NCBI GenBank assembly: GCA_016180085.1
Contig: JACPBX010000003.1
Coordinates: forward strand, 2,652-66,651
From: Candidatus Woesearchaeota archaeon
Lineage (GTDB): Archaea; Nanobdellota; Nanobdellia; Woesearchaeales; UBA10216
Direction of reading: 5' to 3'
DNA length: 64,000 nt
Position 1 is the first letter of the stretch, and every line of letters begins with the position of its first letter. Positions 26,007 through 56,158 of this stretch are shown here, piece after piece. Below the pieces are notes generated by a model. That model did no database searches and had not been told where the DNA came from. It saw only the letters and a list, made by a program, of their open reading frames with translations. The translations under genes and the position numbers were made by a program.

Positions 26007-26017
26007 GCTGCAGCATC

Positions 26018-27477: not shown

Positions 27478-27498
27478 CCGTCTTAACCGTAAAGCAAA

Positions 27499-30400: not shown

Positions 30401-31047
30401 GCAAAGGCACAGTGCAGCTTTTAGTTGACGTCCAGCCCGACTCTGAAGGCTACTTCATCGGGAGGATATCAGTGCAGGTTCCCAGCCCTTCACGCCCTGA
30501 TGAAGTGGATGTTCTTGTCGTGCCTTTTTCATTCTCGCGGACTTCCCAGATGGTTGTTTCGGCTGTTGATTCCGGAGGCAGGCCCCTGCTTGCTGACTTC
30601 TATCTCCACAGCAACGACCTTGAGCAATTATCCCGTGCATCATTCGGGATTGACTACGTAGGTGACAGCTATACATTCAAGCTGAAAAGTGGCAGTTATA
30701 CGGTCCACGCTGTAAGCGTTTTCGAAAGCCCTGTCCAGTTTTTCCTTTCCAAGGCTGTTGCGCTGCCTGTTGGCTCAAAGCTAAGCATCCCGCTGAGCAC
30801 TGCCGACGCAAGGCAGTTCAAGGTCCCGGCAGAATCCTTCAGCAAGGTTCCTCTCAGGCTTAACACGTGGGAAAAGGCTTTGCTGATATACAATGACAAA
30901 TCACTGTGGTCAACCACTTACACGGCATTCTCCCCAAATATTCCTGACGGTAATAAGGTTGTTTACGTTTCAGACAGGCCTGAAAACGGCCTTAACACTG
31001 ACGTGATAATAGACTACGAGGGCTATCCCACAAACATACCAAAATGA
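27499..31047 (+). CDS. Membrane-anchored subtilisin-like (S8) serine protease with I9 propeptide
   Basis: IIDTGVDYTHPDL (Asp), HGHGTHVAAT (His), SGTSMATPHVSGAAALL (Ser). I9-like FSGFAANLSDEEA...VRAVYPN. Confidence 0.9.
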   Translation: MFSKKGVREGAHGGAHGSAVGKGRHGQRAAAAATPAVTFHSRLPFLLLAVVVFLGVVGFAVFNVYNFRFGAVGKAYSAVVLNESSFRTGAVLSSEASVPRQLSLVVQGPVSAATALISGTASGVTVSIGPDSVYEQYGELPVQPEQVGDFSYEINRQCSSFPCEVELTVVSASSGTVALSDFSLVPAVAESDMPSISVETDKNYYNIGDSVMLVGAPQAGSKPVSVVNNPKPEAVPGNITVKVQRMSVRADSAEPGWEDVSGVMAVAKDVSVPASGFLDIAAELGISEFFRASEPGRFRILAEFAMPDGSVLSDASEFAARAEQKELACSINFDCPVYHSCQNGVCVNFCGGEGQPGQPGQPGEPAEPPEEPPEEPGNKSVQASRSDLSRMNIARLNALGFEIEKGQGNADVGNIDLSDYSITAEGDAVVVSKGSSVRKFSGDAGSFVIADSKGNKILLKRVAPQQQKVASHIIELKSEPLLKYKASVEEQLATSASAGGAAGVDGYAGPAKDSVKDLVKNSVDAYKKRLADAKVQALLEMAQANPNLPGSIVKEYSKAFSGFAANLSDEEAATVRKLPSVRAVYPNGRVFALLDNSVNQISADEVWKLKDKNGAALTGKGVTIAIIDTGVDYTHPDLGGCFGSGCKVAGGYDFFNDDPDPIDDHGHGTHVAATAAGSGILKGVAPDATVYAYKVLGAGGGGNWDDVIAAIERSVDPNEDGDFSDHLDVISMSLGGSGNPDDPQSQAVDNAVSNGVVAVIAAGNSGPGSGTIGSPGTARKAITVGAVDKCDNIAGFSSRGPVVWEGGTLLKPDIVAPGVDICAAQWDSWLADLKCVDDRHIAISGTSMATPHVSGAAALLLQANPEWSPEDVKSAMMLGAHDLGLSPTDQGAGRLDVLRSLNPAISVLPNSVSFELSEGTSYSTDLEITNLLDKEMAVEFSAVTFDLDGKVYDFASVEPESLTLAPNGKGTVQLLVDVQPDSEGYFIGRISVQVPSPSRPDEVDVLVVPFSFSRTSQMVVSAVDSGGRPLLADFYLHSNDLEQLSRASFGIDYVGDSYTFKLKSGSYTVHAVSVFESPVQFFLSKAVALPVGSKLSIPLSTADARQFKVPAESFSKVPLRLNTWEKALLIYNDKSLWSTTYTAFSPNIPDGNKVVYVSDRPENGLNTDVIIDYEGYPTNIPK

Positions 31048-34000: not shown

Positions 34001-36722
34001 AGATGAAGATGATATCGCAAGCAGGGAACGGAAGCTTGTTGGCAGGAAGGAGCTTGGCTCTGTCAGACCAGAATCCTTTTTTGAGTTTGACTTTGACTGG
34101 ACGCCATCTTCAGCAGGAGAATTTTCACTAGAGCTGGTGCTCGAGGCATCTAACGAAGGCAATAATGAAGACAATACCGACATCGTGGAAGCTTTTGTGC
34201 AGAGGAAAGAGGTTGACGCCGAGGTTAGCAGCCTTGAGTTTCCCGACTTCATCATTTCCGAAGCCCAGAACCCGATATACGCCATTGTTACCAAAATCGG
34301 AAAGGAGGAGCCTGGGCCGTTTAACATCACGCTGAAGGCAAACGGCCTCGTCGTTTCAACAGTGTATGACTTCACCTTCAGCCAGTTTACAACGACACAG
34401 TATGTCCAACTTTGGTGGACTCCGGCTGCAGCCGGTAAATACGTTGTTGAGGCAGAGCTCAACCTCAGTGATTCTGACACTTCAAACAATGCAAAATCAA
34501 AGAAGGCGGATGTGACCGGCAAGAGGCAGGTGAACATTACCTTCCTTGCCCCAGATGGCACGCCTGCCGAGAGGCTGCTGGCAGTTGGAGATTTTGATGG
34601 CACTGTGACTGGGACAGTAGGCGTCACTTTGCCTGATGCTCCGGTTGACGTCTGGATTGGCATGAAGGAAGAAGAAGGGAATTCTGTCGCTTCTGTCTAT
34701 GAGAAGTCGTCCATTAGGGGGAATGTTACTGTAGTTACAGCCCGCTCAGCTACGCCTTCTGTCCAGAACGGCGTGCTTGTCTACGAGTTTTTCGCCAACA
34801 ATATCTCGTGGAGCTACCAGTCTGTTTCAGAGTTCCTAAGCAGGAGGCTTTCAGACCTGACCATCCGCTACACCGAGCTCAAGGCGTTTGTGTGCGATGG
34901 CTTTGACTTTGCAGGCTCAAAATGCGGGAACTGGCAGGAAGTGCCTTCTGACATAATTGTTGACTCCGGCGTTTTGCTTGTGACAGCCTCAGCGAGCAGG
35001 GCAAACTCATTTGCGATTGGCGACAAGGACTACGACGATGACAACCAGCCAGACTGGGATGACAGCGATGCCGATAATGACGGCGTTGACGATGAAACAG
35101 ACAGCTTTGTCTGCTTCAACGGCAGGCTCAAGTCGACAAAGCTGAATGTGAGCGTTGACGGAAGTTCGGATGCAAAGGATGTTGAAGGCAAGAAAACGGT
35201 GGATTTCAAGCAGGGTGAAAGGCAGATAGCAGAGTTCACGGCTGATTTCGACAAGGGCGTCCTTGACTGCAGGGATGTTACGGTTGAAAAGCAGCCTGAG
35301 TCAGCCAAATCAGGCTACGTTCTTATTTCAGGAATAGCTAATTCAGCTGAGCCCAAGAAGGTTTTTGTTGACAAGATCGCGAAGATAAGCAGGGTCTGCG
35401 TAAAAGATGCTGAGATAATCTCCATAGCTGAAGTAAGCCAGGGCTGCACGGGAAGCAGCGAGTTCATTGTGCTATGCAACGGAGTGAAGCAGGGCAGCTA
35501 TACCTGCACAGAAACAGAAAGCCAGTATGTAATCACAGGCGTTGTGCACTCTGGAATAATAGAGCTTACAGATTGCCAGGAGTCGTGGTTATGCACTGAC
35601 TGGAGCGCATGCGTTTCAGGGAAGCAAACACGCAGCTGCACTGACTCGCACAACTGCGGCACACAGTCAAGCAAGCCTCTGGGCGAGCAGCCCTGTCAAA
35701 CTAGTGGCGGAGGCGGTGGAGGTGGTGGAGGAGGAGGCGGTGCTTCGCGAAGGACGTTTGGGCTTGATGATCTGGAAAACTGGGTTGCAGGCAAGACAGA
35801 GCAGCTGCTGGTAAGGGAAAAGGACGTCATTACCTTTGACTTCGGCAGGCGCAATTACAGGCTGGTTGTGAGGGATATAGCGAGTGCCTTTGTAAGGATT
35901 GACATTTCATCAGAAACAAAGGACAGCACAATAGGCAAAAGCGAAACCATGCTGTTTGACCTTAACAAGGATGGCACTGATGACCTTGCCCTGACATTCA
36001 TAAGCCTTGATTTCAACAAGGCTGTTATCACGCTGCAAAGGCTTGAGCCAAAGCCAGTGGAAGCAGCCAAGCCAAAACCTGCGCAGCCTTCCACGCAGCC
36101 TACGCAGCAGTCAGAATCAGAACAGCCACCTCAACAGCAGGTAGTGCAGCCAGAAAAAGAGCCTGCACAACCACGCATTGGCCTCAGAAATGTGGGCAGG
36201 ACTGCGTTCTTTGCCTTGATAGCTGGAGTGCTGGCCGTAATTCTACTGGCAGCAATCGCTTTCGTCTCAAACATGCTGGGCAGGCCGAGGCAGCCTAAAC
36301 AACCTCGGCAGCCTTACCAGCTTCAGCAGCCGCACCACCCACCGTACCAACCTCATCACCCCGCTTACTATCAGGCTCATCACGCAGCCGCAACCCACCC
36401 AACGGCTCACATTCCAACACACATCCCAGCCCATCCTGCGCAGCAGCCTGCACACCCACCAGTTCATCCTGCCCATGCTGCCGTCCATGCCGTCCAGCCC
36501 AGGGCACAGGCTGCACCAAGCCCGACAATTGCAGATGTTGAGGCGTTCATTAACCGCTGTCTGGCGAGAAGGCTGTCTTCTGAGCAGATTGTAAGGCTCT
36601 TCGCCAATGCCGGCTGGAGCCCCAGGCTTATTGAGCACGTTATCAAGGTTAAGATTGCAGAACTCACCAGGGAAAGGCATAGGATTGAGCATTCGCTGCA
36701 CATGCACGAAACCAGGAAGTAA
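31044..36722 (+). CDS. Giant (1892 aa) surface lipoprotein/adhesin with C-terminal TM anchor
   Basis: Lipobox LVSGC and repeated CARDB-like beta-sandwich segments. It has two poly-Gly linkers (DNA 35706-41 encodes 12 Gly), the TM segment FFALIAGVLAVILLAAIAFV and a His/Pro/Gln-rich tail. ATGA overlap with the protease gene. Confidence 0.8.
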   Translation: MKMRAVHCLPNKKFCTSRILAAVLLAAVAVLVSGCYTDDYLLSSEHYFSGWVLHNVDASTKTDLSYSKADVAELNYSFGFPSSVPAESSSVDWWIMPLHKNQLFAFVIGLNKVFPVPLNTTYYIFGQNGPEDFYETKWSFSTQLSHSYALSGAGEIVPIAPEATQFFPSDDAFFDAYNPVAGESKPVLLGSPPFLPTSVSVTDTGSSAHINLSSPLISLASGNGFVSYYADEFAAPTYKVLKSDGKIFWEGELTDASTGKISHKALDVSVSKPDTYSIVLKIPLPYEAWNLTEVTASFTYPSSDISPPVLEKVDVLPRFTPGKDLPVSVRFSDNVQIASVEVYARISPESEWQKLSVTEESGLANAFFSVAEGASRVDLKLAAKDLSGNGASYIINYASLPAVETKLALDVPSELTRLQKVRLSGTCSHTNGQNCNEELILIRVDGSEAARTIAREGKFELDFTMPESSSPESKLSAAFLGTGTLSQASTDVSVAVPSHGRDVGVADLSVRDALLGEPFKVSARVVNVGGQEEKDVAVELTANGDLISSKTLEALAVAESRDVSFDFFPEEGFYDIAISATAKADENSLNNEVSEGVDVEYAAPDVSVYAEPAKTAVFSKTAVTLQVTNYGEVKATGIKAQLYDLYKPVSTFIDLSEEKPGKGSGGGGGGKEGKKKVSASYNDTDYDIEAERVGQSIVLTVSVKGKPETAEELTFTNSLKVQKLASGVYFYMDFASHFGAFFRIGTATVSEVSVGNLNSFEERAVPVDWAPGSIGEYILVAFVSADSDSYTGNNYYSVDGRSLKEGVNVESSLSIDFSKKFVTGVKTAIPAEVENIGSESAKKIVVSLYEEKDEDGSEEEKTKESKPVPGAIKATLIGTQAIDELDVKKSRKLIFDWVPKKSGVRRLTLIAEVKGDVDASDNDAVGFARVVPKDKADLDASLFHPDDELLAGQAVNVTGSAYNAGIKAAENTVASLYEIKGSLDDLDEDDIASRERKLVGRKELGSVRPESFFEFDFDWTPSSAGEFSLELVLEASNEGNNEDNTDIVEAFVQRKEVDAEVSSLEFPDFIISEAQNPIYAIVTKIGKEEPGPFNITLKANGLVVSTVYDFTFSQFTTTQYVQLWWTPAAAGKYVVEAELNLSDSDTSNNAKSKKADVTGKRQVNITFLAPDGTPAERLLAVGDFDGTVTGTVGVTLPDAPVDVWIGMKEEEGNSVASVYEKSSIRGNVTVVTARSATPSVQNGVLVYEFFANNISWSYQSVSEFLSRRLSDLTIRYTELKAFVCDGFDFAGSKCGNWQEVPSDIIVDSGVLLVTASASRANSFAIGDKDYDDDNQPDWDDSDADNDGVDDETDSFVCFNGRLKSTKLNVSVDGSSDAKDVEGKKTVDFKQGERQIAEFTADFDKGVLDCRDVTVEKQPESAKSGYVLISGIANSAEPKKVFVDKIAKISRVCVKDAEIISIAEVSQGCTGSSEFIVLCNGVKQGSYTCTETESQYVITGVVHSGIIELTDCQESWLCTDWSACVSGKQTRSCTDSHNCGTQSSKPLGEQPCQTSGGGGGGGGGGGGASRRTFGLDDLENWVAGKTEQLLVREKDVITFDFGRRNYRLVVRDIASAFVRIDISSETKDSTIGKSETMLFDLNKDGTDDLALTFISLDFNKAVITLQRLEPKPVEAAKPKPAQPSTQPTQQSESEQPPQQQVVQPEKEPAQPRIGLRNVGRTAFFALIAGVLAVILLAAIAFVSNMLGRPRQPKQPRQPYQLQQPHHPPYQPHHPAYYQAHHAAATHPTAHIPTHIPAHPAQQPAHPPVHPAHAAVHAVQPRAQAAPSPTIADVEAFINRCLARRLSSEQIVRLFANAGWSPRLIEHVIKVKIAELTRERHRIEHSLHMHETRK

Positions 36723-42023: not shown

Positions 42024-42581
42024 ATGAAAACCTCAAAAACAAGCCAAAACCGCTTCATAACCCTTCTTCTGACAGGCACTCCAGGCACCGGAAAGACGTG
42101 GCTGGCTAAAAAACTCTCACTTTTACTGGATTATGCGTACTTTGATGTTGGCTTGTTCATGAAGAAGGCTCGCCTTTACAGCAGCTACGACAGGAAAAGG
42201 CGCACCTACGTTGTAGACGAGGCAAAACTGGCCAGTTCACTCATAAAAGTGAGGGAAAAGTCTCTGGAAGCCTTTAAAGCCTCTAAAACAGGCAAAAAGG
42301 GCATAATTTTCGACTCTCACATGTCTCACTGCCTGCCTTCCAAGTACTCTGATTTGTGCATTGTGACAAGCTGCGGCTTAAAAACCCTTCAGCAGCGGCT
42401 AAGAAGGAAGGGCTACAGCCAGGCAAAGGTAAGGGAAAACCTGGATGCTGAGATCTTCGATACGTGCCTTTCCGAGGCGCAGGAAAACGGCCATAAAGTC
42501 CTGAACTTTGACAGCACCGCAGCCAAAAATTCTGATGTAAAAGCTCTTGCAGGCCGCATAAAGAAACTAGTCCGGACTTAG
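42024..42581 (+). CDS. Adenylate kinase isoenzyme 6 / Fap7-like NTPase
   Basis: Walker A LLTGTPGTGKTWLA, about 185 aa. Confidence 0.65.
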   Translation: MKTSKTSQNRFITLLLTGTPGTGKTWLAKKLSLLLDYAYFDVGLFMKKARLYSSYDRKRRTYVVDEAKLASSLIKVREKSLEAFKASKTGKKGIIFDSHMSHCLPSKYSDLCIVTSCGLKTLQQRLRRKGYSQAKVRENLDAEIFDTCLSEAQENGHKVLNFDSTAAKNSDVKALAGRIKKLVRT

Positions 42582-42618
42582 TCCGGATTCAGTCCGGACT
42601 TAGTTCGTTAACGAACTT
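42569..42618. repeat. Array A: four tandem 11-nt units (AGTCCGGAyTt) ending in gaactt
   Basis: The units are agtccggactt agtccggattc agtccggactt agttcgttaac, followed by gaactt. The array spans the ends of two convergent genes. Confidence 0.9.
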
Positions 42619-43297
42619 CCTCCAAACTGTTTTTTTCAGCCAAAATTACCTTCTTCGAGCCCTTTTCGCTGTGCCTTATCATCCTTTTGTGCTTTAGCTC
42701 CCTAAAATAATCGTAGAATGCAGTCCTTCCGCACAGCGCCTTCTCTCCGACGATGATTTCCTCAATTTCCCTTGTTGAGTGGGTTTCTTTTGCTGCAATT
42801 TCAAGGATTTGTTTCAGTATGTAATCTTTTCGCCTGCTCCTTATAGCCGTTACGACCTTGTTTTCAAAATAAGTCCGTTTTCGGTCCGGATTTAGTTCGG
42901 ATTTAGTTCGGATTAAGTCCGGAAACGAACTTGTTTTTGCCTCTTTCAGCCCCGCTTTTAGCTCTTCCCTAAGGCCTTGTATTGCTGCTTTAAGCTCCGA
43001 AGCGTCTGCCTTTAGCCCTGCAATCAGGGTTTTGTGCTCTCCCAGCTCCCTTTGGGTCTTGGTGTGCCTTTGTTCGTTGAGCAGGTCCTTGTGCTTAAGG
43101 AATTTGACCCACGAGCTTAGCAGGGTAATGTCTTGCTTTACCTTTGAGAACGCAGCTACGACCTTTCCTTCAATCACCGCAAAAGGGGATATAGAAAGCT
43201 CACCGGAAGGCCTTTCCTGCCAACCCACCTGCCGCTCCTCTCGTCTTTTCTCACTTCTTCTGCTTCTTGCGCCGAAAAGTAGGTCCAGAATTCCCAT
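42608..43297 (-). CDS. Hypothetical coiled-coil protein with C-terminal wHTH-like domain (229 aa)
   Basis: The ATG at 43297 follows TATA atttaaat (43324-31). A heptad-like LKA.. region is present, and the C-terminus reads REIEEIIVGEKALCGRTAFYDYFRELKHKRMI. Confidence 0.55.
   Translation of the reverse strand: MGILDLLFGARSRRSEKRREERQVGWQERPSGELSISPFAVIEGKVVAAFSKVKQDITLLSSWVKFLKHKDLLNEQRHTKTQRELGEHKTLIAGLKADASELKAAIQGLREELKAGLKEAKTSSFPDLIRTKSELNPDRKRTYFENKVVTAIRSRRKDYILKQILEIAAKETHSTREIEEIIVGEKALCGRTAFYDYFRELKHKRMIRHSEKGSKKVILAEKNSLEEVR
42872..42932. repeat. Array B: five tandem 11-nt units of the same family, ending in gaactt
   Basis: The units are agtccgttttc ggtccggattt agttcggattt agttcggatta agtccggaaac, followed by gaactt. 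The array lies inside the 42608-43297 CDS and is out of register with codons. Confidence 0.9.
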
Positions 43298-43478: not shown

Positions 43479-44543
43479 ATGAGGAATCAGATTGCAGCAA
43501 TAGAGCTTAGGGCGCTTGTGGGTGAGCTTAAGCAGCTTGAAGGCTCTTGGCTGGACCAGGTTTATGATTTGGAGGCAGCCGAAGCTAAGCCCGGCAAGGC
43601 GCTGGTGTTCCAGCTTAACAAAAGTGAGGGTAAAAGGTTTCTTGTCTGCCTGGCTCCTTCTTCGGTGTTCTTCTCGGTGAACAAGCCTGCGACCGCAGAG
43701 AAGCAGAGCGGCTTTTGCAGCACGCTGAGGCATCATCTGGGTAATGCCAGGTTGGTTTCAATCAGCCAGCCCGGCTCTGAGCGCATCCTTGAGCTTGTTT
43801 TCTCGTCGAGAAATCAGCAAAGGCAGCTTAGGCTTGTTATTGAACTTTTCAGCAAGGGCAACGTAATCCTGGCAGATGAGAAAGGCGTTATTCTGGGCTG
43901 TGCTGAGCACCAGGCGTGGAAGGACAGGACGGTAAAGCCGGGCTACACATACTCTCTCCCTCCAGCCACTGCTGACTTTGCAGCTATGGCACAGGAGCAA
44001 TTTGCCAAGGCAGTTTTGTCGTCGGGAAAAGACTCTGTGGTGAAGGCGCTGGCTGTCGACCTTGGCCTTTCCGGATTTTATGCTGAAGAGCTCTGTTTGG
44101 CAGCAGCTATTGCGAAAGACAAAAAGCCGCAGCAGCTGTCCCAGCAGGACTTAAGCAGCCTTTATTCGGCATTGCAGCAATTGCTGTCCAGGAAGCAGCC
44201 AATAAACGCTGCCTTGGAGGCAAAAGCCGCAGCCCATATTGCTGAAACTTCCTTGTCGTCTAAAACTGCACCTTACTCAAGGCAGATGAAAGAGCTTGAG
44301 ATTGCTGTTGAGCGGCAGAAAACAGCTGTTTCTGAGCTGGGTAAGGCTGCGCAGGAAGCCACCAAAGCAGCCGAGTTCATCTACGAGCACTACATGGAAA
44401 TCAGGCAAATTCTTGACGACTACAACAGGCTACGCAAGACATTTACTCCTGAACAGCTTAGGGAGTATTTCAGCAGCAACAAGCTTATCAAATCCATCGA
44501 CGAGAAAACAGGCCAGATTGCGCTTGAGATTGGCAACGATTAA
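43479..44543 (+). CDS. NFACT-N (FbpA/Rqc2-like) protein lacking the NFACT-R/DUF814 part
   Basis: N-terminal IAAIELRALVGELKQLEGSWLDQVYD...LVFQL...FLVCL pattern, then coiled coil. It ends at 354 aa. Confidence 0.6.
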   Translation: MRNQIAAIELRALVGELKQLEGSWLDQVYDLEAAEAKPGKALVFQLNKSEGKRFLVCLAPSSVFFSVNKPATAEKQSGFCSTLRHHLGNARLVSISQPGSERILELVFSSRNQQRQLRLVIELFSKGNVILADEKGVILGCAEHQAWKDRTVKPGYTYSLPPATADFAAMAQEQFAKAVLSSGKDSVVKALAVDLGLSGFYAEELCLAAAIAKDKKPQQLSQQDLSSLYSALQQLLSRKQPINAALEAKAAAHIAETSLSSKTAPYSRQMKELEIAVERQKTAVSELGKAAQEATKAAEFIYEHYMEIRQILDDYNRLRKTFTPEQLREYFSSNKLIKSIDEKTGQIALEIGND

Positions 44544-44899
44544 GTTGTGGTCCCAGTGGGTGCGTTCTGCGCTTGGTATTGTGGAGAATTTTTTTCAATT
44601 TCGGCGATTCTGTCGGTCAGTTCTTCCACTTTGTGACTCGCCATAACCGCTTTTACTGTGTGGTATATGGCATATCCCAAAATTAAAGCCCCAGTGCTCA
44701 TTTCAAAAGCCCGTGCCCAATAAGGATAGGATTCTCCGTTTGCTACTGTGTTAACAGCATTATTAACTGCATCATATACTAAATTCCCACCTAAAGCAAA
44801 ACCAATAAAGCCTTTTATACGTCCATCAATGCTCCTCTCGTTCCAAGTTTCTTTTTGGGTTTCTAGCACCTGCAATTCAATGTTTTCGTCTTCCGTCAT
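44540..44899 (-). CDS. Hypothetical small membrane protein
   Basis: Two hydrophobic segments. Convergent 4-nt overlap with 43479-44543. Confidence 0.45.
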   Translation of the reverse strand: MTEDENIELQVLETQKETWNERSIDGRIKGFIGFALGGNLVYDAVNNAVNTVANGESYPYWARAFEMSTGALILGYAIYHTVKAVMASHKVEELTDRIAEIEKNSPQYQAQNAPTGTTT

Positions 44900-44969
44900 A
44901 TTACGTTAGTTTTCCAGTACTTTTATTTAAACTTTTCTATAATTTATTACTTATTAGTAATTACGTATT

Positions 44970-45554
44970 TCAGTAGTAGAAGTCCTTAAAGGCTGCTTCT
45001 TTTGCCGTTTCTTTTCCTCCCTTCGCAGCTGTCGCCTTTGCCTGCATCTTCCCGAACAGCGAGATAAAGACGTCCTTCTCAACAGCTATTCCCGCTGCCG
45101 TCAGCGCATCCGCGAGATTGTAGCCGGAATAATCCGTAGCTGCATCGTATTCCAGCAGCTTTTTTGCTGTGTAGCTGCAAAGAAAGCCATCGTTGAGGGC
45201 GATTACGATATTTTTGCCTTTGTCGTCGAGAAACTCAGTATTTTCTACTGCTGTTTTATGGCTGTTACTGTCGTTTATTCCGTGATTTCTCAGCTCCAGC
45301 CGAATCAGCTCTGCCGCTATCTCCCTGAAGCTGCTTTTGCCTATCCATTGCCGTAATGCCTGTTCGCCTGTAAGCCCCAGGAACGCCCCTAAAGCCTCAC
45401 TTTTTGCCTTTTCAGGCCTTATTAGCCTGCCAAGGTATTTTGACACCTTCTGGCGAGGGCCTGAGCCTGTCCAGCTGTTTGCAACGAGGTAGGCATACTC
45501 CTTTCCGGAAATCCGCTTTATTCTTACGAAAACCATTCCAATCAGCCAATCCAA
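44970..45554 (-). CDS. Hypothetical protein
   Basis: ORF with the N-terminal VRIKRISGKEYAYLV...KVSKYLGRL motif. TATA ttaatatat is upstream. Confidence 0.5.
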   Translation of the reverse strand: MDWLIGMVFVRIKRISGKEYAYLVANSWTGSGPRQKVSKYLGRLIRPEKAKSEALGAFLGLTGEQALRQWIGKSSFREIAAELIRLELRNHGINDSNSHKTAVENTEFLDDKGKNIVIALNDGFLCSYTAKKLLEYDAATDYSGYNLADALTAAGIAVEKDVFISLFGKMQAKATAAKGGKETAKEAAFKDFYY

Positions 45555-45654
45555 TTTTAGGCACTAGGTGATATATTAAGCTTGTGGCGTGCCAACTGCA
45601 ATTGCTGCAGATTTGGCCTTAAAATATCTAAAAGCCGTGTTTCCAGTCTAAGAA

Positions 45655-46107
45655 TTACCTGTGCGGCTCAGCCCTTTTCCTGTAATGGTTTCTGGGGGTT
45701 CTCTGGGCAGTCTTTGGCGCTGGCCGGGCGCGTGGAGTAGCGCCTTCTCGCGTTATGCCCCTGTGGAATGGTATCCTCATTTGCGTGGCAACGTAAATCA
45801 TCTGCGGTTTTTGTTTTTGCCCCCATTCTTTGAGCGTTCTTGCTACACTATCTTCGAGCGGCGACGGCTTTCCCCATCCCATTCCCGGTAAATGCCTCAT
45901 TAATGCTGCGTTGTAATAAGCAGCGTAATCACTAAGAGCAACTGCCGCACCCATTGCCGCCTTGTAGGTGCGGCCGCCTGATGGGTTGTAAACCATAAGG
46001 TCTGGGCGACTCGTGCTTAGTTTAAAAGTTTTACTGGAGCTTGGTGTTTTCCTGGCTGTAAAAGGGAAATAGAACTCTTCAGATTCTTGCCCACATAATC
46101 TTTTCAT
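45655..46107 (-). CDS. Hypothetical basic-tailed protein (uncertain)
   Basis: The only support is the open reading frame. There is a 29-nt overlap with the upstream gene, and an alternative start at 45996. Confidence 0.35.
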   Translation of the reverse strand: MKRLCGQESEEFYFPFTARKTPSSSKTFKLSTSRPDLMVYNPSGGRTYKAAMGAAVALSDYAAYYNAALMRHLPGMGWGKPSPLEDSVARTLKEWGQKQKPQMIYVATQMRIPFHRGITREGATPRARPAPKTAQRTPRNHYRKRAEPHR

Positions 46108-47041
46108 AGAACAATTTTCCTTTCTGCGTGGTGATGCTTAAAAAAGTTGGAAAGTACTTTTCACTTTCAGGCAGCAAGGCGAACTTGAACTTTGCAAGCC
46201 TCTGAGGCATGACCGGCTTCAGTCTGTGCATGGCATCCTCCACCTGCTGCTGACCTAAGTCTTTGGTTGTAACTGCGGGAATGCCGTATGAATCGGTTTT
46301 GTATGGAGCTTTGCGTTGGCTGCCAAGCTTGAATACTCCTATTGCGCGTTCTGTTTCTATCTTGAATCCTCCAAAGGCAAACTGCTGGCGTCTTTGCACC
46401 CTTACACAGGTGACTCCACTTCCGCTTTCTCCATTCTTTCCTGCCACATACAGGTCTGCCAGCACAGAGTCAGGAACAAGTAACTGCAAGCCAAGCTCCG
46501 GAAGCAGCCATGCGAAATGCTGCCTTATGTAGCTCGGCGCTATTATAGTTACGTCGAGTCCTTGCTCTTCCACAAGGCGCCCGAACCGCTGTCCGGATTT
46601 TCCTATGAGTTCTGTATCGTTGGTAATGAGGTAGCTTTTCCCAAACCTCTGTGCAACTATTCTTGCCTCCAATGCCAGCCGTTTGTCTGTTGGGCTGAGG
46701 TTAAGGTTGGATACCACTGGCGCATCAGGCTCTGAGAATTGCCTTGTAGGGAATGAGGTGCTGGTTTCCTCGATTATCTGTCCAAGTGACCGGGGAACCC
46801 ACGGCACTTTCTCGCTTTCAGGAATTGTCGGTTCAGCTCGCCAGAAATTCTCGTATTCCGTAATAACAGGGCTTATCATGCGTATTCTTATTCCTTTGAG
46901 GTTAAGCCACCTTGCTGCCAGCATGCCATAAAGCCCCCTGGTCGCGAGCTGCAAGAGGAACCACGTATCGGCTATTGCCAGTGCAGAGGGGTCATCAATC
47001 CTGTCGTAGGCTTCCCTTATTTTGGCCCCAACGTTCACCAT
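46079..47041 (-). CDS. PIN-like N-domain protein, paralog A
   Basis: LAIADTWFLL, VITEYENF and YLITNDTEL resemble the PIN acidic residues. LLPELGLQLLVPDSVLADL and the C-terminal ...WARI are shared with paralog B. TATA lies at about 47066-78. Confidence 0.6.
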   Translation of the reverse strand: MVNVGAKIREAYDRIDDPSALAIADTWFLLQLATRGLYGMLAARWLNLKGIRIRMISPVITEYENFWRAEPTIPESEKVPWVPRSLGQIIEETSTSFPTRQFSEPDAPVVSNLNLSPTDKRLALEARIVAQRFGKSYLITNDTELIGKSGQRFGRLVEEQGLDVTIIAPSYIRQHFAWLLPELGLQLLVPDSVLADLYVAGKNGESGSGVTCVRVQRRQQFAFGGFKIETERAIGVFKLGSQRKAPYKTDSYGIPAVTTKDLGQQQVEDAMHRLKPVMPQRLAKFKFALLPESEKYFPTFLSITTQKGKLFYEKIMWARI

Positions 47042-47105
47042 AATCCTGTGGGACTGTTTGGTACTATTTATATTTAAAGCATATCGTGTGTAGACAGTAT
47101 CTGTT

Positions 47106-48191
47106 TTACCTTATTCTTGCCCATTCGACGAACAGGTAAGCTTTCCTTATTAAATCGCCCATTGTAAAAATAAGCCGTTCCTGTTGATAGGGCTTAGAGA
47201 AGTCAATGCCACTGCCTTTGACCATGCGTGCTAAGGCAGCAGGGTCAGAAGCGGCATCTTTTACTTTCCTCAGTTTTTTCATGTGCTCTCTAGTACCGAT
47301 TGTTATTCTTTCTCTTTGAAGAATCTCAGTAAGCCCCCTGTGCCTGGCAGAGACAACAGCTATTTTTTCAGGGAAGCTGTCTAGCGTTGCAGCAAAGTTT
47401 CCAAATTCCAGGTTTACTGCTTTATAGTCCTGCTCTTTTCCTTCTGCTAAATCAAACAGCGCATTTGCCATTATTATTGGCACGTCATATCGCCTTTCTT
47501 CGCTTCGCATTTTGCCCCATTTGAATCTCAGCTCCATTGCAGTGTCGAACCTGTAATACTTTCCGCCGTAGCTGAACGGTTCTTTTCTGCTAACTGCGAG
47601 GAATGGCATGCCATCCCCTTTTAGCTCTCCTGAGGCAAGCCTGGCAATGTCTGCTAGGACAGGTGCTCTTATGAGTAGCTCAAGGTCAAGCTCAGGCAGA
47701 AGGCCAGCTATGTTTCTTTCAACGCTGTCCGGAGTAATGCAGGTTATGCTATTTGCGAAAGGGCTAGTCCTTAGAACAGGCGGTATGTCATAGTCTGCCG
47801 TGGCAACATAAACTTTTGCTCGTGTTTCTGCTGCTCTTCCTACGGCAGCCTCAGCAACTTTCACATCAGTTCCGCTTAGCTGTTTTGGAGGGTTGCTCAT
47901 AAATGCACGCGCAGCAAACCCGACTTGTGCCTTACCCATAGTTTCAAGGGGCGCTTGTGCTTTCGGGATGCCCTCCCTGTCAGGGCTGCCATATCTGTGA
48001 AGAGTTCTGTATTCCGCTTCAACTTGACTTGTGAAAACCAAACCGAGATTTTTCTTGCTTGCCCACTCTGCCGCCAGCAATGCCCATAGCCGTCTTCCTA
48101 AAAGGTCAACTACGAACGAAGTGTCTACTATGATCCTTTCATTTCCTTCCAGTTTAAGCGCTTCTTTCAGGGCGTGCTCAAGAGTGTTCAT
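47106..48191 (-). CDS. PIN-like N-domain protein, paralog B
   Basis: RIIVDTSFVVDLL, QVEAEY and YVATADYD are PIN-like. It has LLPELDLELLIRAPVLADI and ends ...WARIR. Confidence 0.65.
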   Translation of the reverse strand: MNTLEHALKEALKLEGNERIIVDTSFVVDLLGRRLWALLAAEWASKKNLGLVFTSQVEAEYRTLHRYGSPDREGIPKAQAPLETMGKAQVGFAARAFMSNPPKQLSGTDVKVAEAAVGRAAETRAKVYVATADYDIPPVLRTSPFANSITCITPDSVERNIAGLLPELDLELLIRAPVLADIARLASGELKGDGMPFLAVSRKEPFSYGGKYYRFDTAMELRFKWGKMRSEERRYDVPIIMANALFDLAEGKEQDYKAVNLEFGNFAATLDSFPEKIAVVSARHRGLTEILQRERITIGTREHMKKLRKVKDAASDPAALARMVKGSGIDFSKPYQQERLIFTMGDLIRKAYLFVEWARIR

Positions 48192-48212
48192 GCTTGAAGG
48201 AAAACGGTTTGG

Positions 48213-48222
48213 TTATTTAAAA
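48213..48222 (-). promoter_or_regulatory. TATA box for PIN-like paralog B (leaderless)
   Basis: The minus strand reads ttttaaataa, 22 nt upstream of ATG 48191. Confidence 0.5.
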
Positions 48223-48240
48223 TGTCTCAGAAAAAGAAGT

Positions 48241-48356
48241 GTGAACAGCGATCCTGTTTTCCCGCACGACGTGCAGTACTGGTAGGAACGTGCGCCTGCT
48301 TAACTGTCCGAGTTCGAAATGGGATCGGGTGTACCCAGGCGGCCATGGCCGTTCAC
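48241..48356 (-). rRNA. rrf: 5S ribosomal RNA
   Basis: The reverse complement reads GTGAACGGCCATGGCCGCCTGGGTACACCCGATCCCATTTCGAACTCGGACAGTTAAGCAGGCGCACGTTCCTACCAGTACTGC...GCTGTTCAC. Helix I closes with gtgaacggc/gctgttcac. A T-tract follows. Confidence 0.9.
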
Positions 48357-48378
48357 ATGCCTGAGGATAAGGAGGAGG

Positions 48379-48386
48379 TTTATAAA
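48379..48386 (-). promoter_or_regulatory. TATA box for 5S rRNA
   Basis: tttataaa lies 23 nt upstream of the 5S 5' end. Confidence 0.55.
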
Positions 48387-48397
48387 GTTTGCTGTGA

Positions 48398-48622
48398 CTA
48401 TTTGTAATGCGGCATATTCTTGTTCGGTGCCCCTTGCGCTGGTCGCTCAGCCCGTGTTTGGGGGTAGTAGCCTCTGCCGCTTCTGTATCCGCCAGTCTGT
48501 CCTGTTTGAACTTCTTGAACTGAAGTTATCACCGGAACAATCGGTGCAGGCATAAATCCGCTAGGCACCTGTGCGTCTTTGGTGAGTCTGATAAGAATTC
48601 CAACCAGGTCAGGCATAGGCAT
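48398..48622 (-). CDS. Possible 74-aa protein with RGG/YY-like tail (uncertain)
   Basis: The ATG lies about 20 nt after TATA tttaaata (about 48643-52). No family was recognised. Confidence 0.3.
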   Translation of the reverse strand: MPMPDLVGILIRLTKDAQVPSGFMPAPIVPVITSVQEVQTGQTGGYRSGRGYYPQTRAERPAQGAPNKNMPHYK

Positions 48623-48663
48623 ATGTTGCGGCAACTGCGCATTATTTAAAAATTTTTAGTTCT

Positions 48664-49782
48664 TCACGTTTGCGTTGTTCCGAAGCGCTCGTATGCCTGC
48701 CGTATTACCTGTTGCAGCGCTTGCTCCTGCCCTTCTTTTGTCCTTTGGCTTCTGAACATGCCGATTAAGTTATCCAGCCATAGTATGTCGCTTACTGCTT
48801 TTTCCATCATGTCTAAGCCTTTCCTTTCCAGTTGTCCTGGTTTTGTGAACCTGAATATGCCCAGGCCACCAGGCTGTAACTGGGGATTGACCTCGTATGG
48901 CTGTTCAAACCTCCTCAGGAAAAGGTTTATGTCTTCTGGAGAACTCCTCAATTTCGCAGGTATGCCGTACCAGTCTTGCATGTGGGCAGCCTCTGTGCCG
49001 GCATGTCCGGTGCTGGCCTGCATTTCCGGTTGAGGCTGTTGTGGAGCTGTTGTGATTTGCTGTGCTTCCCGCTGCGCTTCTGTTGGCACGGCTTTCAGCC
49101 TGTCAATCAGCACCCTTACCTCTTCCCTGCTTGCCTTTCCTTCTTTCTGCAGCGAGATTGCGCCATCTATTTGCTGCAGCAGCTTGACAACATTGCGCCT
49201 CGCATTTTCATTTTGGTATAATGAGGCGTTTTTGAACAAAACCGCTGAGACAACCCTTTTCCTTTCTTTCATGTATGTTGGCATGGCTATATCTTTAGTT
49301 GTTAGAGAGTAATCCCGTGTGGCAGCGGCAACCGCTTCTTCAAGGTCAGCAGGATTTCGGGCAGGAGTTGGCAAAAGTTCATACTGCACTATTTTCTTTT
49401 GCCCTATGTGGGCTCCCGTCACTCCTATGCTGAATTCTATAAGATGCTGGAGGCAGGGCTCCAGTGTTTCCCTGAATAGCTGGGCAATGCTTGGCGGAAT
49501 CGCTGCCGGGTTCGGCAGTGTTGCTCCTTTCAGATTTTCTGCTTCCGGGCCATAGTACGTGTGCTGGCTGAAGCTTCCGCTTGAGTGCTCCAAATGGCAG
49601 ACCTGGATTAGCTCTTCAGGCGTTCTTCCCCCAAGCATGGGCTTTAATAGAGCCCGGATTCTCTCTTCCTTGGCTTTGGCATTTTTCTCCCCTCTTGTTT
49701 CTTCCTCTATCTGCCTTATTTTTGCAGCAAGGTCTTCGTTAGGTGAGGGCTGCCTGCTGTTTTGCTCCTGTTGTTGCGCCAT
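48664..49782 (-). CDS. Hypothetical protein (372 aa)
   Basis: Long ORF. TATA atttaaaaa (49805-13) lies 23 nt upstream. No family was recognised. Confidence 0.6.
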   Translation of the reverse strand: MAQQQEQNSRQPSPNEDLAAKIRQIEEETRGEKNAKAKEERIRALLKPMLGGRTPEELIQVCHLEHSSGSFSQHTYYGPEAENLKGATLPNPAAIPPSIAQLFRETLEPCLQHLIEFSIGVTGAHIGQKKIVQYELLPTPARNPADLEEAVAAATRDYSLTTKDIAMPTYMKERKRVVSAVLFKNASLYQNENARRNVVKLLQQIDGAISLQKEGKASREEVRVLIDRLKAVPTEAQREAQQITTAPQQPQPEMQASTGHAGTEAAHMQDWYGIPAKLRSSPEDINLFLRRFEQPYEVNPQLQPGGLGIFRFTKPGQLERKGLDMMEKAVSDILWLDNLIGMFRSQRTKEGQEQALQQVIRQAYERFGTTQT

Positions 49783-49845
49783 CGCTGCCTTTTGGGCTGT
49801 CAGAATTTAAAAACCTTTCTATTTTAATAACTAGAAAGTAGTTAA

Positions 49846-50646
49846 TTATTTGATGGCTTTGGCATCGGCAGCCGTGTGTATGTGCTGCTCCTTCTCAGCA
49901 GAGGTATGGCCGAAGAGAAGCCCCTGCTCTGCCAGCTTCGGGAACACATCATACTCAAGGCTGCTGCCGCTTATGTTGAAAATCTCGGGGGTTGCAATAA
50001 AGATTGGCGAAAAAACAAGGTAAACGTCAGTCTTGCGAGGCTTTTGTATGAACTCAAGTATGCGGTTGCCTTCCACTTTTACTGTTCCTTTCTCGCTCGG
50101 GTTTGGTGCTGTTGTCAGCATCAGCGTTGCGACCGCTGTTCCCTGCCTGAGGTGCTGGTTCCAGAGCTCCTGCACATTTACCCTGTCGAATATCACATGG
50201 CCATAGACAACTAGGAAGTTCGCATTGATCTTCCCCTTCAGCAGCCGCAGGGTGTCTGCGCTTCCGTTGCTTTCTTTTTCTTCTATGTAGCTGACCTTGA
50301 CGTTTTGGCTGCTTCCGTCTTTAAGCACGTCAAAGACCATGGTCAGGACATTGTGCCTTGCTACGATAAATATGTCCCTGAAGCCGTTTTCCCTAAGCTT
50401 TTTTACCGCCTTCTCGATGACGGTTGCGTTTTTAATCCTGGCTGTAATCCTGTATTCTGTGCCGGAAATCTTCAGCCTCTCTTCAGGGCCTCCGGCAAGT
50501 ATTGCCGCCTGCTTGTGTTCCCCCATTGCAGTCTTTGCCAGGAACTCGATTGCCTGCGACCTGTTCCTTATGAATATGTTGTCCACGACCGAGTCTACGC
50601 CTTTGAGGATGCTGTCCTCTATCGTGATGCTTATCTTCCGTTTCAT
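49846..50646 (-). CDS. Ribbon-helix-helix (CopG-like) N-domain fused to a sugar nucleotidyltransferase-like domain
   Basis: The N-terminal KISITIEDSILKGVDSVVDN...RNRSQAIEFL is RHH-like, followed by AAILAGGPEERL, a degenerate GxGTRL nucleotidyltransferase loop. Confidence 0.6.
   Translation of the reverse strand: MKRKISITIEDSILKGVDSVVDNIFIRNRSQAIEFLAKTAMGEHKQAAILAGGPEERLKISGTEYRITARIKNATVIEKAVKKLRENGFRDIFIVARHNVLTMVFDVLKDGSSQNVKVSYIEEKESNGSADTLRLLKGKINANFLVVYGHVIFDRVNVQELWNQHLRQGTAVATLMLTTAPNPSEKGTVKVEGNRILEFIQKPRKTDVYLVFSPIFIATPEIFNISGSSLEYDVFPKLAEQGLLFGHTSAEKEQHIHTAADAKAIK

Positions 50647-54016: not shown

Positions 54017-56158
<2,142 letters not shown>

What the first reader, a model, noticed from the sequence alone, without database searches (positions are those of the whole stretch)
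44540..49782. Co-directional island of orphan genes with individual leaderless promoters, interrupted by the 5S rRNA gene
From 49782 down to 44540, everything is on the minus strand. The order is: a 372-aa orphan, a possible 74-aa RGG/Tyr-rich ORF, 5S rRNA, two PIN-like paralogs (361 and 320 aa), a 150-aa basic-tailed ORF, a 194-aa orphan and a 119-aa two-TM protein. I can recognise none of the proteins beyond the PIN-like N-domains. Several have their own TATA box 20-26 nt from the ATG (49805-13, about 48643-52, 48213-22, about 47066-78, about 45571-80). The combination of nuclease-like paralogs, a small membrane protein, small basic proteins and no metabolic context is the profile of an uncharacterised defence, toxin or RNA-processing module. 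It is the best candidate in this window for a protein-based undescribed system.
Basis: inference. Interest (0 to 1): 0.65.

Follow-up and report, generated by a model that had tools for sequence, protein, structure and literature searches.

The report
Mosaic gene patch around 5S rRNA
The stretch is not one hidden defence system but a conserved piece of a Woesearchaeota chromosome around the 5S rRNA gene whose gaps hold strain-specific genes, including two copies of a rare, dispensable nuclease-like gene that sits right after the 5S gene.

Summary
The described genes, their shared minus strand, the 5S rRNA gene and the individual TATA-type promoters are all present. The window comes from a Candidatus Woesearchaeota MAG (locus tags HYU16_00420-00450). 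The seven ORFs are not a co-inherited module. B (188 aa) belongs to a family found across Woesearchaeota, with at least 141 clusters, and it sits next to a short RqcH-like gene in relatives. G has homologues in two relatives, one of which lacks the PIN-like gene. A, C and F have no relatives in any sequence searched. E and D are divergent members of a rare family, with 17 representatives among 1.84 billion. They combine an N-terminal PIN-like nuclease domain, with all four acidic residues conserved, and a C-terminal domain that resembles MPN but lacks the JAMM motif. In five loci this gene lies directly 3' of the 5S gene. It is absent from that slot in three relatives. One of these (L028) matches a PIN-positive contig (L008) closely, apart from a clean 1030-nt indel. 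Composition and codon usage match the host, and PADLOC, PHROGs, phage and viral-contig searches found nothing. Best reading: a conserved backbone with variable slots, plus a dispensable, fast-evolving stand-alone PIN nuclease of unknown role. Interest is modest.

The parts
48664..49782 (-). G, 372 aa, function unknown. Conserved N-terminal two-thirds, Q/P-rich linker, C-terminal domain. Its TATA box TTTTTAAAT is at 49805-49813.
   Evidence: ORF. Coding score 0.18. Homologues in L007 (59% identity, directly upstream of 5S) and L030 (42% identity, upstream of 5S, no PIN gene). No Pfam or PDB sequence match. NCBI locus tag HYU16_00450.
48398..48622 (-). F, a possible 74-aa ORF (Gly/Tyr/Arg-rich tail) with its own TATA box at 48643-48653. 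It fills a 308-nt gap between G and 5S that is only 25-42 nt in L007 and L030.
   Evidence: promoter spacing. Coding score 0.13. Not annotated and not in the protein collection. No homologue in any locus. Its status as a gene is uncertain.
48240..48356 (-). 5S rRNA gene. [quoted passage not shown] A T-run terminator follows directly after the 3' end.
   Evidence: Rfam RF00001, 68.5 bits. Sequence. Alignment with seven other loci.
47106..48191 (-). E, 361 aa, the divergent paralogue with the PIN-like plus MPN-like architecture. TATA box at 48213-48223.
   Evidence: Exact match to HYU16_00440. Hits the family profile at 7e-84.
46079..47041 (-). D, 320 aa, PIN-like plus MPN-like protein. It is the copy orthologous to the single gene that follows 5S in other genomes. 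TATA box at 47065-47079. Acidic tetrad D25, E62, D119, D142.
   Evidence: AF2 model with pLDDT 81.5 and pTM 0.81. Foldseek hits to PIN (1o4w, 6a7v) and MPN proteins (2o96, 4o8y and others). MPN and PIN proteins also appear among BFVD hits.
45655..45996 (-). C, a basic-tailed ORF. It is 113 aa from the ATG at 45996 (the NCBI call), or 150 aa if extended to 46107. A TATA-like TTTTAAAC sits at 46020-46028.
   Evidence: Lowest coding score of the seven (0.06-0.11). No homologue next to any other PIN-like gene.
44970..45536 (-). B, 188 aa. Member of a conserved family specific to Woesearchaeota and Nanoarchaeota. N-terminal three-stranded beta sheet followed by an alpha/beta part.
   Evidence: 141 clusters with E<=1e-3. 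73% identity in L009. Lies beside RqcH-N in L009, L011, L017, L028, L029 and L030. AF2 pLDDT 89.2. No PDB fold match; best E=0.16.
44540..44899 (-). A, 119 aa, singleton ORF with two weakly hydrophobic stretches. TATA box at 44924-44931. It fills the B-RqcH gap, which is zero (overlapping gene ends) in L029 and L030.
   Evidence: B and the NFACT_N gene overlap at their ends in L029 and L030.
43479..44543 (+). Backbone flank: short RqcH-like gene (NFACT_N only, 354 aa), convergent with A and B.
   Evidence: Pfam NFACT_N 5e-42 and NCBIfam RqcH_arch 1e-59. 59-77% identical orthologues in L009, L017, L028-L030.
49846..50646 (-). Backbone flank: 266-aa sugar-nucleotide NTP-transferase, the first gene of the sugar-nucleotide cluster.
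   Evidence: Pfam NTP_transferase 4e-17. 83-92% identical orthologues in L028-L030 in the same position.

Best explanation
The 5.2-kb stretch is a mosaic, not a system. A clade of Woesearchaeota shares a chromosomal backbone. Its order is: sugar-nucleotide genes, NTP-transferase, (G), 5S rRNA, B, convergent short RqcH, coiled-coil/wHTH protein, Fap7-like kinase. The intergenic slots of this backbone are variable. In this genome they hold strain-specific, individually promoted ORFs: F between G and 5S, E-D-C between 5S and B, and A between B and RqcH.

Only E and D have recognisable biochemistry. They belong to a rare, DPANN-restricted family of about 290-360 aa. Residues about 20-200 form a PIN-like domain with the complete four-residue acidic metal-binding site. 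The C-terminal, beta-rich domain resembles a non-catalytic MPN fold.

My committed mechanism is as follows. The protein is a stand-alone, Mg2+/Mn2+-dependent endonuclease, most probably acting on RNA. The C-terminal domain binds the substrate or a partner. The gene is transcribed from its own TATA box just behind the 5S terminator. It is dispensable and fast-evolving, so it is an accessory gene, most likely conflict- or stress-related, rather than a housekeeping factor.

Shown: gene order and its variation, the fold, conservation of the catalytic residues, presence/absence between relatives, and host-like composition. Inferred: nuclease activity, RNA as substrate, and the biological role.
For: Backbone. 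L028, L029 and L030 are NCBI Woesearchaeota MAGs. They carry UGDH, NTP-transferase, 5S, B, RqcH-N, an up282-like gene and a Fap7-like gene in the window's order, at 58-92% protein identity. They have no PIN-like gene.

Contents of the slot between 5S and B:
- window: E, D and C
- L009: PIN plus a 98-aa gene on the opposite strand
- L011: PIN
- L030: empty
- L029: a 133-aa opposite-strand gene
- L028: a methyltransferase plus a 123-aa gene

Clean presence/absence. L008 and L028 share an 88%-identical methyltransferase and a 91%-identical 5S region. They differ by a 1030-nt segment that is exactly the PIN gene plus its promoter.

Fast divergence. D against its orthologues is 31-45% identical, while the neighbours B, RqcH and G are 47-73%, 60% and 59% identical in the same contigs.

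Family rarity. There are 17 representatives at E<=1e-3 among 1.84 billion.

PIN domain. D23, E60, D109 and D133 (E numbering) are invariant or at least 90% conserved across 14 members. Foldseek matches 1o4w (E=3e-3, TM 0.57) and VapC11. There are weak PIN_12, PIN_9, PIN and Utp24 profile hits.

MPN-like C-terminal domain. MPN proteins are the top hits in both PDB and BFVD.

Not foreign. GC, tetranucleotide and codon statistics match the host. No flanking repeats. No hits in PADLOC, PHROGs, phage records or viral contigs.

Independent promoters.
Against: - The PIN-like gene keeps one and the same position, immediately 3' of 5S and on the same strand, in five loci (window, L007, L008, L009, L011) at only 31-45% protein identity. 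That could reflect a functional tie to 5S that this explanation treats as inherited synteny.
- No enzymatic or expression data exist.
- The MPN similarity is weak (TM 0.44, rmsd 8.5 A).
- I could not examine whole genomes of the PIN-negative relatives, so a copy elsewhere in those genomes is not excluded.
- Most contigs are short and come from a narrow clade.
- G, A, C and F remain without any functional clue, so a functional link among some of them cannot be formally excluded.
Confidence: 0.65

Rival explanations
1. The seven genes form one undescribed defence, toxin or RNA-processing system. The PIN paralogues are effectors, and the small basic and membrane proteins are partners.
For: All genes are co-directional and have no recognisable metabolic role. 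PIN-like nucleases are present. The region is variable between relatives.
Against: The genes do not co-occur.
- B is lineage-wide and is present without PIN.
- G occurs without PIN in L030, and PIN occurs without G upstream in L008.
- A, C and F are found nowhere else.
- Each unit has its own promoter.
- PADLOC gives no hits.
- There is no compositional deviation.
Confidence: 0.05
2. The PIN/MPN-like protein is functionally coupled to 5S rRNA or the ribosome. It could be a 5S precursor-processing nuclease, or a ribosome or RNA quality-control nuclease working in the RqcH neighbourhood. Co-location with the 5S gene would then secure co-regulation.
For: The same-strand order 5S then PIN, with a 48-68 nt spacer, occurs in the window, L007, L008 and L009. 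The 3' end of a 5S gene lies at the start of contig L011. The cluster 5S-PIN-B-RqcH is seen in L009 and L011. The endonucleases for archaeal 5S maturation are still unidentified in several archaea (PMC10515664).
Against: - The gene is absent from the slot in L028, L029 and L030, which have the same 5S gene.
[quoted passage not shown] The primary transcript therefore needs little or no processing.
- The PIN gene has its own promoter behind the 5S terminator.
- More distant family members are not near 5S: L010, L013, and L014, which sits inside a polysaccharide cluster.
Confidence: 0.12
3. The PIN-like gene is a selfish, homing-like free-standing nuclease gene. It maintains itself at one site next to the highly conserved 5S rDNA.
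For: - The insertion site is fixed beside a highly conserved RNA gene.
- There is a clean gene-sized indel between near-identical backgrounds.
- The gene evolves fast.
- Two divergent copies lie in tandem in the window.
Against: - PIN-like domains are not a known homing-endonuclease class (my own knowledge).
- There are no target-site duplications or repeats.
- The 5S sequences of PIN-positive and PIN-negative loci are identical, so no cleavage-immunity changes are visible.
- Vertical inheritance with repeated loss explains the pattern equally well.
Confidence: 0.05
4. E and D are classical VapC-type toxins of toxin-antitoxin pairs, with C or another small ORF as the antitoxin.
For: The PIN domain falls in the VapC structural group: the 1o4w and 6a7v hits and the PIN_12 and PIN_9 profile hits. 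A small basic ORF, C, lies directly downstream of D.
Against: - The proteins are 290-360 aa with an extra domain, against roughly 130 aa for VapC.
- No small gene lies upstream; upstream is the 5S gene or E.
- C has no counterpart beside any other family member.
- C probably has its own promoter and does not overlap D.
Confidence: 0.05

Closest known systems
Pfam PF16289 (DUF4935, now PIN_12) proteins, VapC-like group of the PIN-like superfamily (Matelska et al. 2017, PMC5499597)
   Same: - About 350-aa stand-alone proteins.
- N-terminal PIN-like domain of about 200 aa, with a helical insert after strand 2 and two helices after strand 3. The AF2 model shows the same layout.
- Acidic active site retained.
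- C-terminal alpha/beta region of unknown function.
- Genes usually monocistronic and function unknown.
- Two family members give the best Pfam hit to this model.
   Different: - Hits are below Pfam's cut-off (24 bits against 32) and cover only the first 50 or so residues.
- D and E themselves give no hit.
- DUF4935 is almost entirely bacterial, whereas this family is seen only in DPANN archaeal or metagenomic contigs.
- Homology of the two C-terminal regions was not tested.
Archaeal Fcf1-like PIN_9 proteins (e.g. AF0591, PDB 1o4w) and the Nob1, Fcf1 and Utp24 rRNA-processing PIN nucleases
   Same: Best structural match for the N-terminal domain: 1o4w, E=3e-3, TM 0.57. Weak PIN_9 and Utp24 sequence hits. 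The genomic setting is ribosome-related (5S, RqcH, Fap7-like).
   Different: - These are single-domain proteins of about 125 aa (PIN_9), or PIN plus zinc ribbon (Nob1).
- They are universally conserved, housekeeping genes.
- The present family has an extra MPN-like domain and no Cys motif, and is dispensable among close relatives.
VapC toxins of VapBC toxin-antitoxin modules
   Same: PIN fold with four acidic residues. Accessory, fast-evolving and patchy genes. Structural hit to M. tuberculosis VapC11.
   Different: No adjacent antitoxin gene. Two to three times larger. Carries a C-terminal domain. Has its own promoter and is not in a bicistronic operon.
Non-catalytic MPN (MPN-minus) domains such as Rpn8/Mov34, eIF3f/h and Abraxas
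   Same: Top Foldseek hits for the C-terminal half in PDB (2o96, E=5e-4) and in BFVD ('MPN family protein'). No metal-binding motif, as in MPN-minus scaffolds.
   Different: The superposition is poor (TM 0.44, rmsd 8.5 A). No sequence similarity. No JAMM residues conserved. No ubiquitin-like, E1 or E2 genes nearby.

Membership tests
PIN-like domain superfamily | Rossmann-like alpha/beta/alpha fold with a parallel sheet of about five strands | tested here: met
   The AF2 model of D (pLDDT 81.5) has strands 20-24, 52-55, 135-139, 164-167 and 187-189 interleaved with helices. Foldseek matches the PIN proteins 1o4w (prob 1.00, TM 0.57) and 6a7v_C (prob 0.93, TM 0.57).
PIN-like domain superfamily | Three to four conserved acidic residues forming the metal-binding active site | tested here: met
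   In E numbering, D109 and D133 are invariant and D23 and E60 are at least 90% conserved in 14 members. They sit in the motifs DT(S/W)F, E(Y), (S/T)xTD and TNDT.
PIN-like domain superfamily | Profile-HMM match above a curated threshold | tested here: not met
   D and E have no Pfam or NCBIfam hit at E<=0.1. Family members give only sub-threshold PIN_12 (24 bits against 32), PIN_9 and PIN hits.
PF16289 DUF4935/PIN_12 | Pfam gathering score, and homology extending over the whole PIN model | tested here: not met
   Best hit 5.8e-05, 24 bits, model positions 2-51 of 172, in 2 of 16 members.
PF16289 DUF4935/PIN_12 | About 350 aa, with an N-terminal PIN domain and a C-terminal alpha/beta region; monocistronic | tested here: met
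   Lengths are 289-361 aa. Domain layout. Each gene has its own TATA box. Family description in PMC5499597.
VapBC toxin-antitoxin | Small cognate antitoxin gene adjacent and co-transcribed, conserved across homologues | tested here: not met
   Upstream lies the 5S gene (or E). The downstream gene differs in every locus: C, B, a 98-aa opposite-strand ORF, or a methyltransferase.
JAB/MPN (JAMM) metalloproteases | JAMM motif E...HxH...S..D coordinating zinc | tested here: not met
   No conserved His, Ser or Asp motif in the C-terminal half. The only conserved residues there are G209, A218 and W357.
JAB/MPN fold (including MPN-minus) | MPN alpha/beta fold | tested here: inconclusive
   MPN proteins are the top hits in PDB (E=5e-4, prob 1.0) and in BFVD (E=4e-3), but TM is only 0.18-0.46 and rmsd 8-11 A.
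Known anti-phage defence systems (PADLOC-DB v2) | A significant match of any component to a defence-system protein model | tested here: not met
   No hit for A, C, D, E, F or G. B has only a chance-level Cas7e hit (E=0.005, 14.9 bits).
Genomic island or integrated mobile element | Deviant composition, an integrase or transposase, and flanking direct repeats or a tRNA target | tested here: not met
   GC and tetranucleotide usage are as in the rest of the window, and so is codon usage. No integrase or transposase domain. No flanking repeats.
Genomic island or integrated mobile element | Presence/absence polymorphism between close relatives | tested here: met
   Met for the PIN gene only: a 1030-nt indel between L008 and L028. 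The slot is empty in L029 and L030.
Housekeeping rRNA-processing nuclease (Nob1/Fcf1-like) | Conserved presence in all related genomes | tested here: not met
   The gene is absent from the syntenic slot in L028, L029 and L030. Only 17 representatives exist in 1.84 billion proteins. Whole genomes were not inspected.

The most novel reading that the evidence does not exclude
The PIN/MPN-like protein is a previously unrecognised nuclease that is functionally tied to the 5S rRNA gene or its product. It could target 5S rRNA or ribosomes, as a conflict or quality-control effector alongside RqcH. Alternatively it could be a homing-like selfish nuclease that holds its place at the 5S rDNA flank. Either way, its constant position directly 3' of 5S at only 31-45% protein identity would be functional rather than inherited.
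Probability: 0.12. Interest if true: 0.7.

Novelty: new variant of a known kind. Interest (0 to 1): 0.3.

Why it matters
The seven-gene 'system' that motivated the finding dissolves on comparison with relatives, which removes a false lead. Three things remain.

(1) An undescribed domain architecture: a PIN nuclease fused to an MPN-like domain. It is confined to DPANN archaea and has an unusually constant address behind the 5S rRNA gene, yet it is dispensable. It is a small but tractable target for asking what accessory nucleases do in reduced, host-dependent archaea.

(2) A well-conserved Woesearchaeota-specific protein (B) with a confident predicted structure, no solved-structure match, and a stable neighbourhood of RqcH and a Fap7-like kinase. 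As a candidate lineage-specific core factor it may be more important biologically than the PIN genes.

(3) An illustration of how strain-specific, individually promoted orphan ORFs accumulate in the intergenic slots of a conserved backbone.

None of this overturns current understanding.

Tried and rejected
- Word-indexed homology search with E alone and with the 14-member profile returned only self and one fragment. The exhaustive representative search was what found the family.
With three sequences it found one genome locus, L008, nothing in JGI metagenomes and nothing in viral contigs.
- Profile searches of PDB sequences for the PIN family, B and G gave only chance-level hits.
- tblastn of D against phage records gave no match.
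- Foldseek of B against PDB gave no significant match. The only local similarity was 39 residues to the PC4 beta-sheet, prob about 0.5.
- An E-value-mode Rfam scan of L010-L013 for hidden or truncated 5S genes found none. The 5S 3' end in L011 was recognised by eye against alignment A5.
- I looked for target-site duplications or repeats at the L008/L028 indel and around the window region and found none.
- I looked for 5S sequence differences between PIN-positive and PIN-negative loci, as a possible homing-immunity signature, and found none.
- I considered B as a relic of an IS1634-type transposase N-terminus. That idea came from memory of the motif only. I rejected it as a classification because B is a compact, lineage-wide conserved 160-200-aa protein with no transposase domain.
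- Literature searches for PIN-JAB fusions and for Woesearchaeota 5S rRNA found nothing directly relevant.

Full report
**1. Observation**

Between 44540 and 49782 every substantial ORF is on the minus strand. They are:
- A: 119 aa, 44540-44899
- B: 194 aa by the ORF rule, 44970-45554
- C: 150 aa, 45655-46107
- D: 320 aa, 46079-47041
- E: 361 aa, 47106-48191
- F: 78 or 74 aa, 48398-48634 or 48398-48622
- G: 372 aa, 48664-49782

Rfam places a 5S rRNA gene at 48240-48356(-) with 68.5 bits. D and E are paralogues, 29% identical, E=4e-12.

Reading the strand and a motif count confirm TATA-like 8-mers of the TTTAAATA type 27-43 nt upstream of A, B, D, E, F, G and the 5S gene. That is 7 of 8 units, against 8 of 40 other long ORFs in the window. 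The genes here are therefore unusually monocistronic, and the spacing fits leaderless or near-leaderless mRNAs.

A codon-usage model trained on 38 other genes of the window scores all seven ORFs positive in their own frame, and none of 72 spurious ORFs. C (0.06-0.11) and F (0.13) score lowest.

None of the seven reaches significance in Pfam, NCBIfam, PADLOC or PHROGs.

**2. Source and annotation**

E is identical to HYU16_00440 of a Candidatus Woesearchaeota MAG. A, B, C, D and G are HYU16_00420, 00425, 00430, 00435 and 00450. All are annotated 'hypothetical', and all are singleton or two-member clusters at 90% identity. NCBI calls C as 113 aa. F is not annotated and is absent from the collection. 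The 113-aa start of C (45996) has its own TATA-like TTTTAAAC at 46020-46028, downstream of D's stop codon. The apparent overlap of D and C is therefore probably an artefact of the longest-ORF rule.

**3. The PIN-like family**

An exhaustive HMMER search with a D+E profile against 1.84 billion representatives found only 17 proteins at E<=1e-3 and 11 at E<=1e-10. They are 289-361 aa long.

The alignment shows the four acidic residues expected of a PIN active site. In E numbering these are D23, E60, D109 and D133, and each is invariant or at least 90% conserved. There is also a conserved C-terminal W-A-R-I.

An AF2 model of D built on 16 sequences is confident (pLDDT 81.5, pTM 0.81). It shows a PIN-type alpha/beta domain over residues about 20-203 and a beta-rich C-terminal domain.

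Foldseek against PDB returns two groups of hits:
- PIN proteins: AF0591/1o4w, E=3e-3, TM 0.57; and VapC11.
- MPN proteins, for the other half: Mov34/Rpn8 (2o96, E=5e-4), Rpn11, BRCC36, CSN5 and eIF3f/h.

MPN and PIN/NYN proteins also head the BFVD list. The MPN superpositions are poor (TM about 0.2-0.46) and no JAMM residues are conserved, so I call the domain 'MPN-like, non-catalytic, unconfirmed'.

Pfam gives only sub-threshold hits in some members:
- PIN_12/PF16289: 24 bits against a cut-off of 32
- PIN_9
- PIN

Matelska et al. describe PF16289 (DUF4935) as uncharacterised, monocistronic proteins of about 350 aa. They have an N-terminal PIN-like domain with a helical insert after S2 and two helices after S3, and a C-terminal alpha/beta region of unknown structure (PMC5499597). 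This is the closest described architecture. Membership by score is not met.

**4. Context of the PIN-like genes elsewhere**

Contigs carrying family members were fetched.

A 5S rRNA gene lies directly upstream, on the same strand, with a 48-68-nt spacer that contains a T-run and a TATA box, in four loci:
- the window
- L007 (order: G homologue, 5S, PIN)
- L008
- L009 (order: 5S, PIN, B, convergent RqcH)

These are supported. Contig L011 starts with the last 25 or so nucleotides of a 5S gene and then reads PIN, B, RqcH.

More distant members are not next to 5S:
- L010, which has a long hairpin upstream
- L013
- L014, where the gene sits in a polysaccharide cluster

**5. B is not an orphan**

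A profile of B found 141 clusters at E<=1e-3, at 35-82% identity. All are from Woesearchaeota, Nanoarchaeota or unnamed metagenomes. Homologues start at MVFVRIKR, which fixes the start of B at 45536.

B lies beside the short RqcH gene in L009, L011, L017, L028, L029 and L030. It lies beside a Fap7-like kinase in the distant L026.

Its AF2 model is confident (pLDDT 89.2) but has no significant PDB match; the best E-value is 0.16. B is thus a conserved lineage-specific gene of the backbone.

**6. The backbone and its slots**

Three NCBI MAG contigs (L028-L030) share the window's large-scale order. The order is UGDH, NTP-transferase, 5S, B, RqcH-N, up282-like, Fap7-like, HTH, at 58-92% identity. 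Each has a 5S gene in the interval between the NTP-transferase and B. None has a PIN-like gene there.
- L030 has a G homologue (42% identity), then 5S, then B.
- L029 has 5S, a 133-aa opposite-strand gene, then B.
- L028 has other genes on both sides of 5S.

L008 and L028 share an 88%-identical methyltransferase and a 91%-identical 5S region. They differ by 1030 nt, and that segment is exactly the PIN gene plus its promoter. There are no target duplications. The 5S sequences of PIN-positive and PIN-negative loci are the same.

A, C and F have no homologue in any fetched locus. F fills a 308-nt gap that is 25-42 nt in L030 and L007. A fills a gap that is zero in L029 and L030, where B and RqcH overlap at their ends.

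Within shared contigs the PIN-like protein diverges faster than its neighbours. It is 31-45% identical, against 47-73% for B, 60% for RqcH and 59% for G.

**7. No sign of foreign origin or of a known defence system**

- GC is flat.
- Tetranucleotide distance of the region to the whole window has a z-score of -0.7 to +0.24.
- Codon usage is host-like.
- There are no flanking repeats and no integrase.
- PADLOC, PHROGs, phage tblastn and viral-contig scans are all negative.
- Only two family members occur in the window.

**8. Interpretation**

The stretch is a conserved backbone with variable intergenic slots, not a seven-gene module. E and D are two divergent members of a rare PIN plus MPN-like family. 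D is closer to the orthologues in other genomes (44%) than it is to E (26-30%), so the pair is not a recent tandem duplication.

The intact acidic tetrad predicts a metal-dependent nuclease. By analogy with the VapC-like group the substrate is most likely RNA, but that is inference. Dispensability among close relatives, fast divergence and rarity make an essential role unlikely, including 5S maturation.

The 5S promoter and terminator geometry points the same way. [quoted passage not shown]

The constant address behind 5S is best explained by inheritance of an ancestral 5S-PIN-B arrangement with repeated loss. A functional tie to 5S or the ribosome, or homing-like behaviour, is not excluded. 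I give that about 0.12 in total. As background, the endonucleases that mature archaeal 5S rRNA are still unidentified in several archaea (PMC10515664).

**9. Verdict**

The interpretation as one undescribed system is not supported. What remains is a new variant of a known kind (a PIN nuclease with a novel C-terminal domain and a peculiar genomic address) plus an unrelated conserved hypothetical family (B). Interest is modest, at 0.3.

Noticed in passing
window 44970-45536 (-); family alignment A8: B belongs to a family of at least 141 clusters that is restricted to Woesearchaeota and Nanoarchaeota. Its AF2 model is confident (pLDDT 89) but has no PDB fold match. The only local resemblance is between its N-terminal three-stranded sheet and PC4. 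Its neighbourhood is stable: RqcH-N, a coiled-coil/wHTH protein and a Fap7-like kinase. It may be a lineage-specific translation or ribosome quality-control factor.
   Followed up: partly
window 43479-44543 (+); L009 2394-3599; L029 10552-11622: The RqcH homologue in this clade is only 354-424 aa. It has NFACT_N and a coiled coil but no NFACT-R or NFACT-C part, whereas the NCBIfam RqcH_arch model is 645 positions long. Either the gene is split or the protein is reduced.
   Followed up: no
L009 84-229: This 5S rRNA gene carries an insertion of about 29 nt (GGAATAAACCAAGCGACAGTTTGGCTTACGA-like) relative to the otherwise near-identical 5S genes of the window, L007, L008 and L028. Its Rfam score drops from about 69 to 45.9 bits.
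   Followed up: no
window 42569-42607 and 42883-42921: There are two sets of three tandem 11-nt repeats (AGTCCGGACTT-like) 292 nt apart. One sits at the junction between the Fap7-like gene and the 282-aa coiled-coil/wHTH gene. The other sits inside the 282-aa gene.
   Followed up: no
L010 190-260: A nearly perfect hairpin of about 70 nt lies 75 nt upstream of the PIN-like gene, in the one close family member that has no 5S gene upstream. The only Rfam matches are chance-level miRNA hits.
   Followed up: no
L009 1277-1573 (-), L028 9317-9688 (-), L029 9467-9868 (-): A small family of homologous ORFs (98-133 aa; 29-46% identical in the better-matching pairs) lies on the opposite strand between 5S or PIN and B in three relatives. 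It has no counterpart in the window.
   Followed up: partly
window 49846-50646 (-): The 266-aa NTP-transferase has an N-terminal extension of about 45 aa with weak similarity to the NikR ribbon-helix-helix domain (TIGR02793, E=0.0013, residues 4-45). This could be a regulator-enzyme fusion. The extension is conserved in L028-L030.
   Followed up: no
window 54167-56158 (+): A GDP-mannose 4,6-dehydratase homologue is 663 aa long, about twice the usual length. The Pfam model matches it in two stretches, which suggests a large insertion (possibly an intein) or a fusion.
   Followed up: no
window about 25000-33000: This is the only part of the window with elevated tetranucleotide distance (z about 2) and higher GC (0.52-0.55). 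It coincides with two giant ORFs of 1182 and 1892 aa at 27499-36722.
   Followed up: no
L007, L008, L009, L010, L011: between the TATA box and the ATG of the PIN-like gene: A short conserved motif, A(A/G)GA(T/C)TC(G/C)C, lies about 10 nt downstream of the TATA box in most orthologous promoters. It may mark the transcription start or a regulatory site. It is not obvious upstream of E or D in the window.
   Followed up: no
L018 16276-16460 (-): An Rfam RT-16 RNA match (76 bits) lies about 6 kb from a distant B homologue.
   Followed up: no
L008 (CAZBFZ010000104.1): This 3.2-kb contig is binned as 'uncultured Methanosarcinales archaeon'. However, its 5S gene and its methyltransferase (88% aa identity) match the MAG contig L028 (GCA_964639865.1), which shares the window's gene order at 77-92% protein identity. 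It is probably mis-binned.
   Followed up: partly
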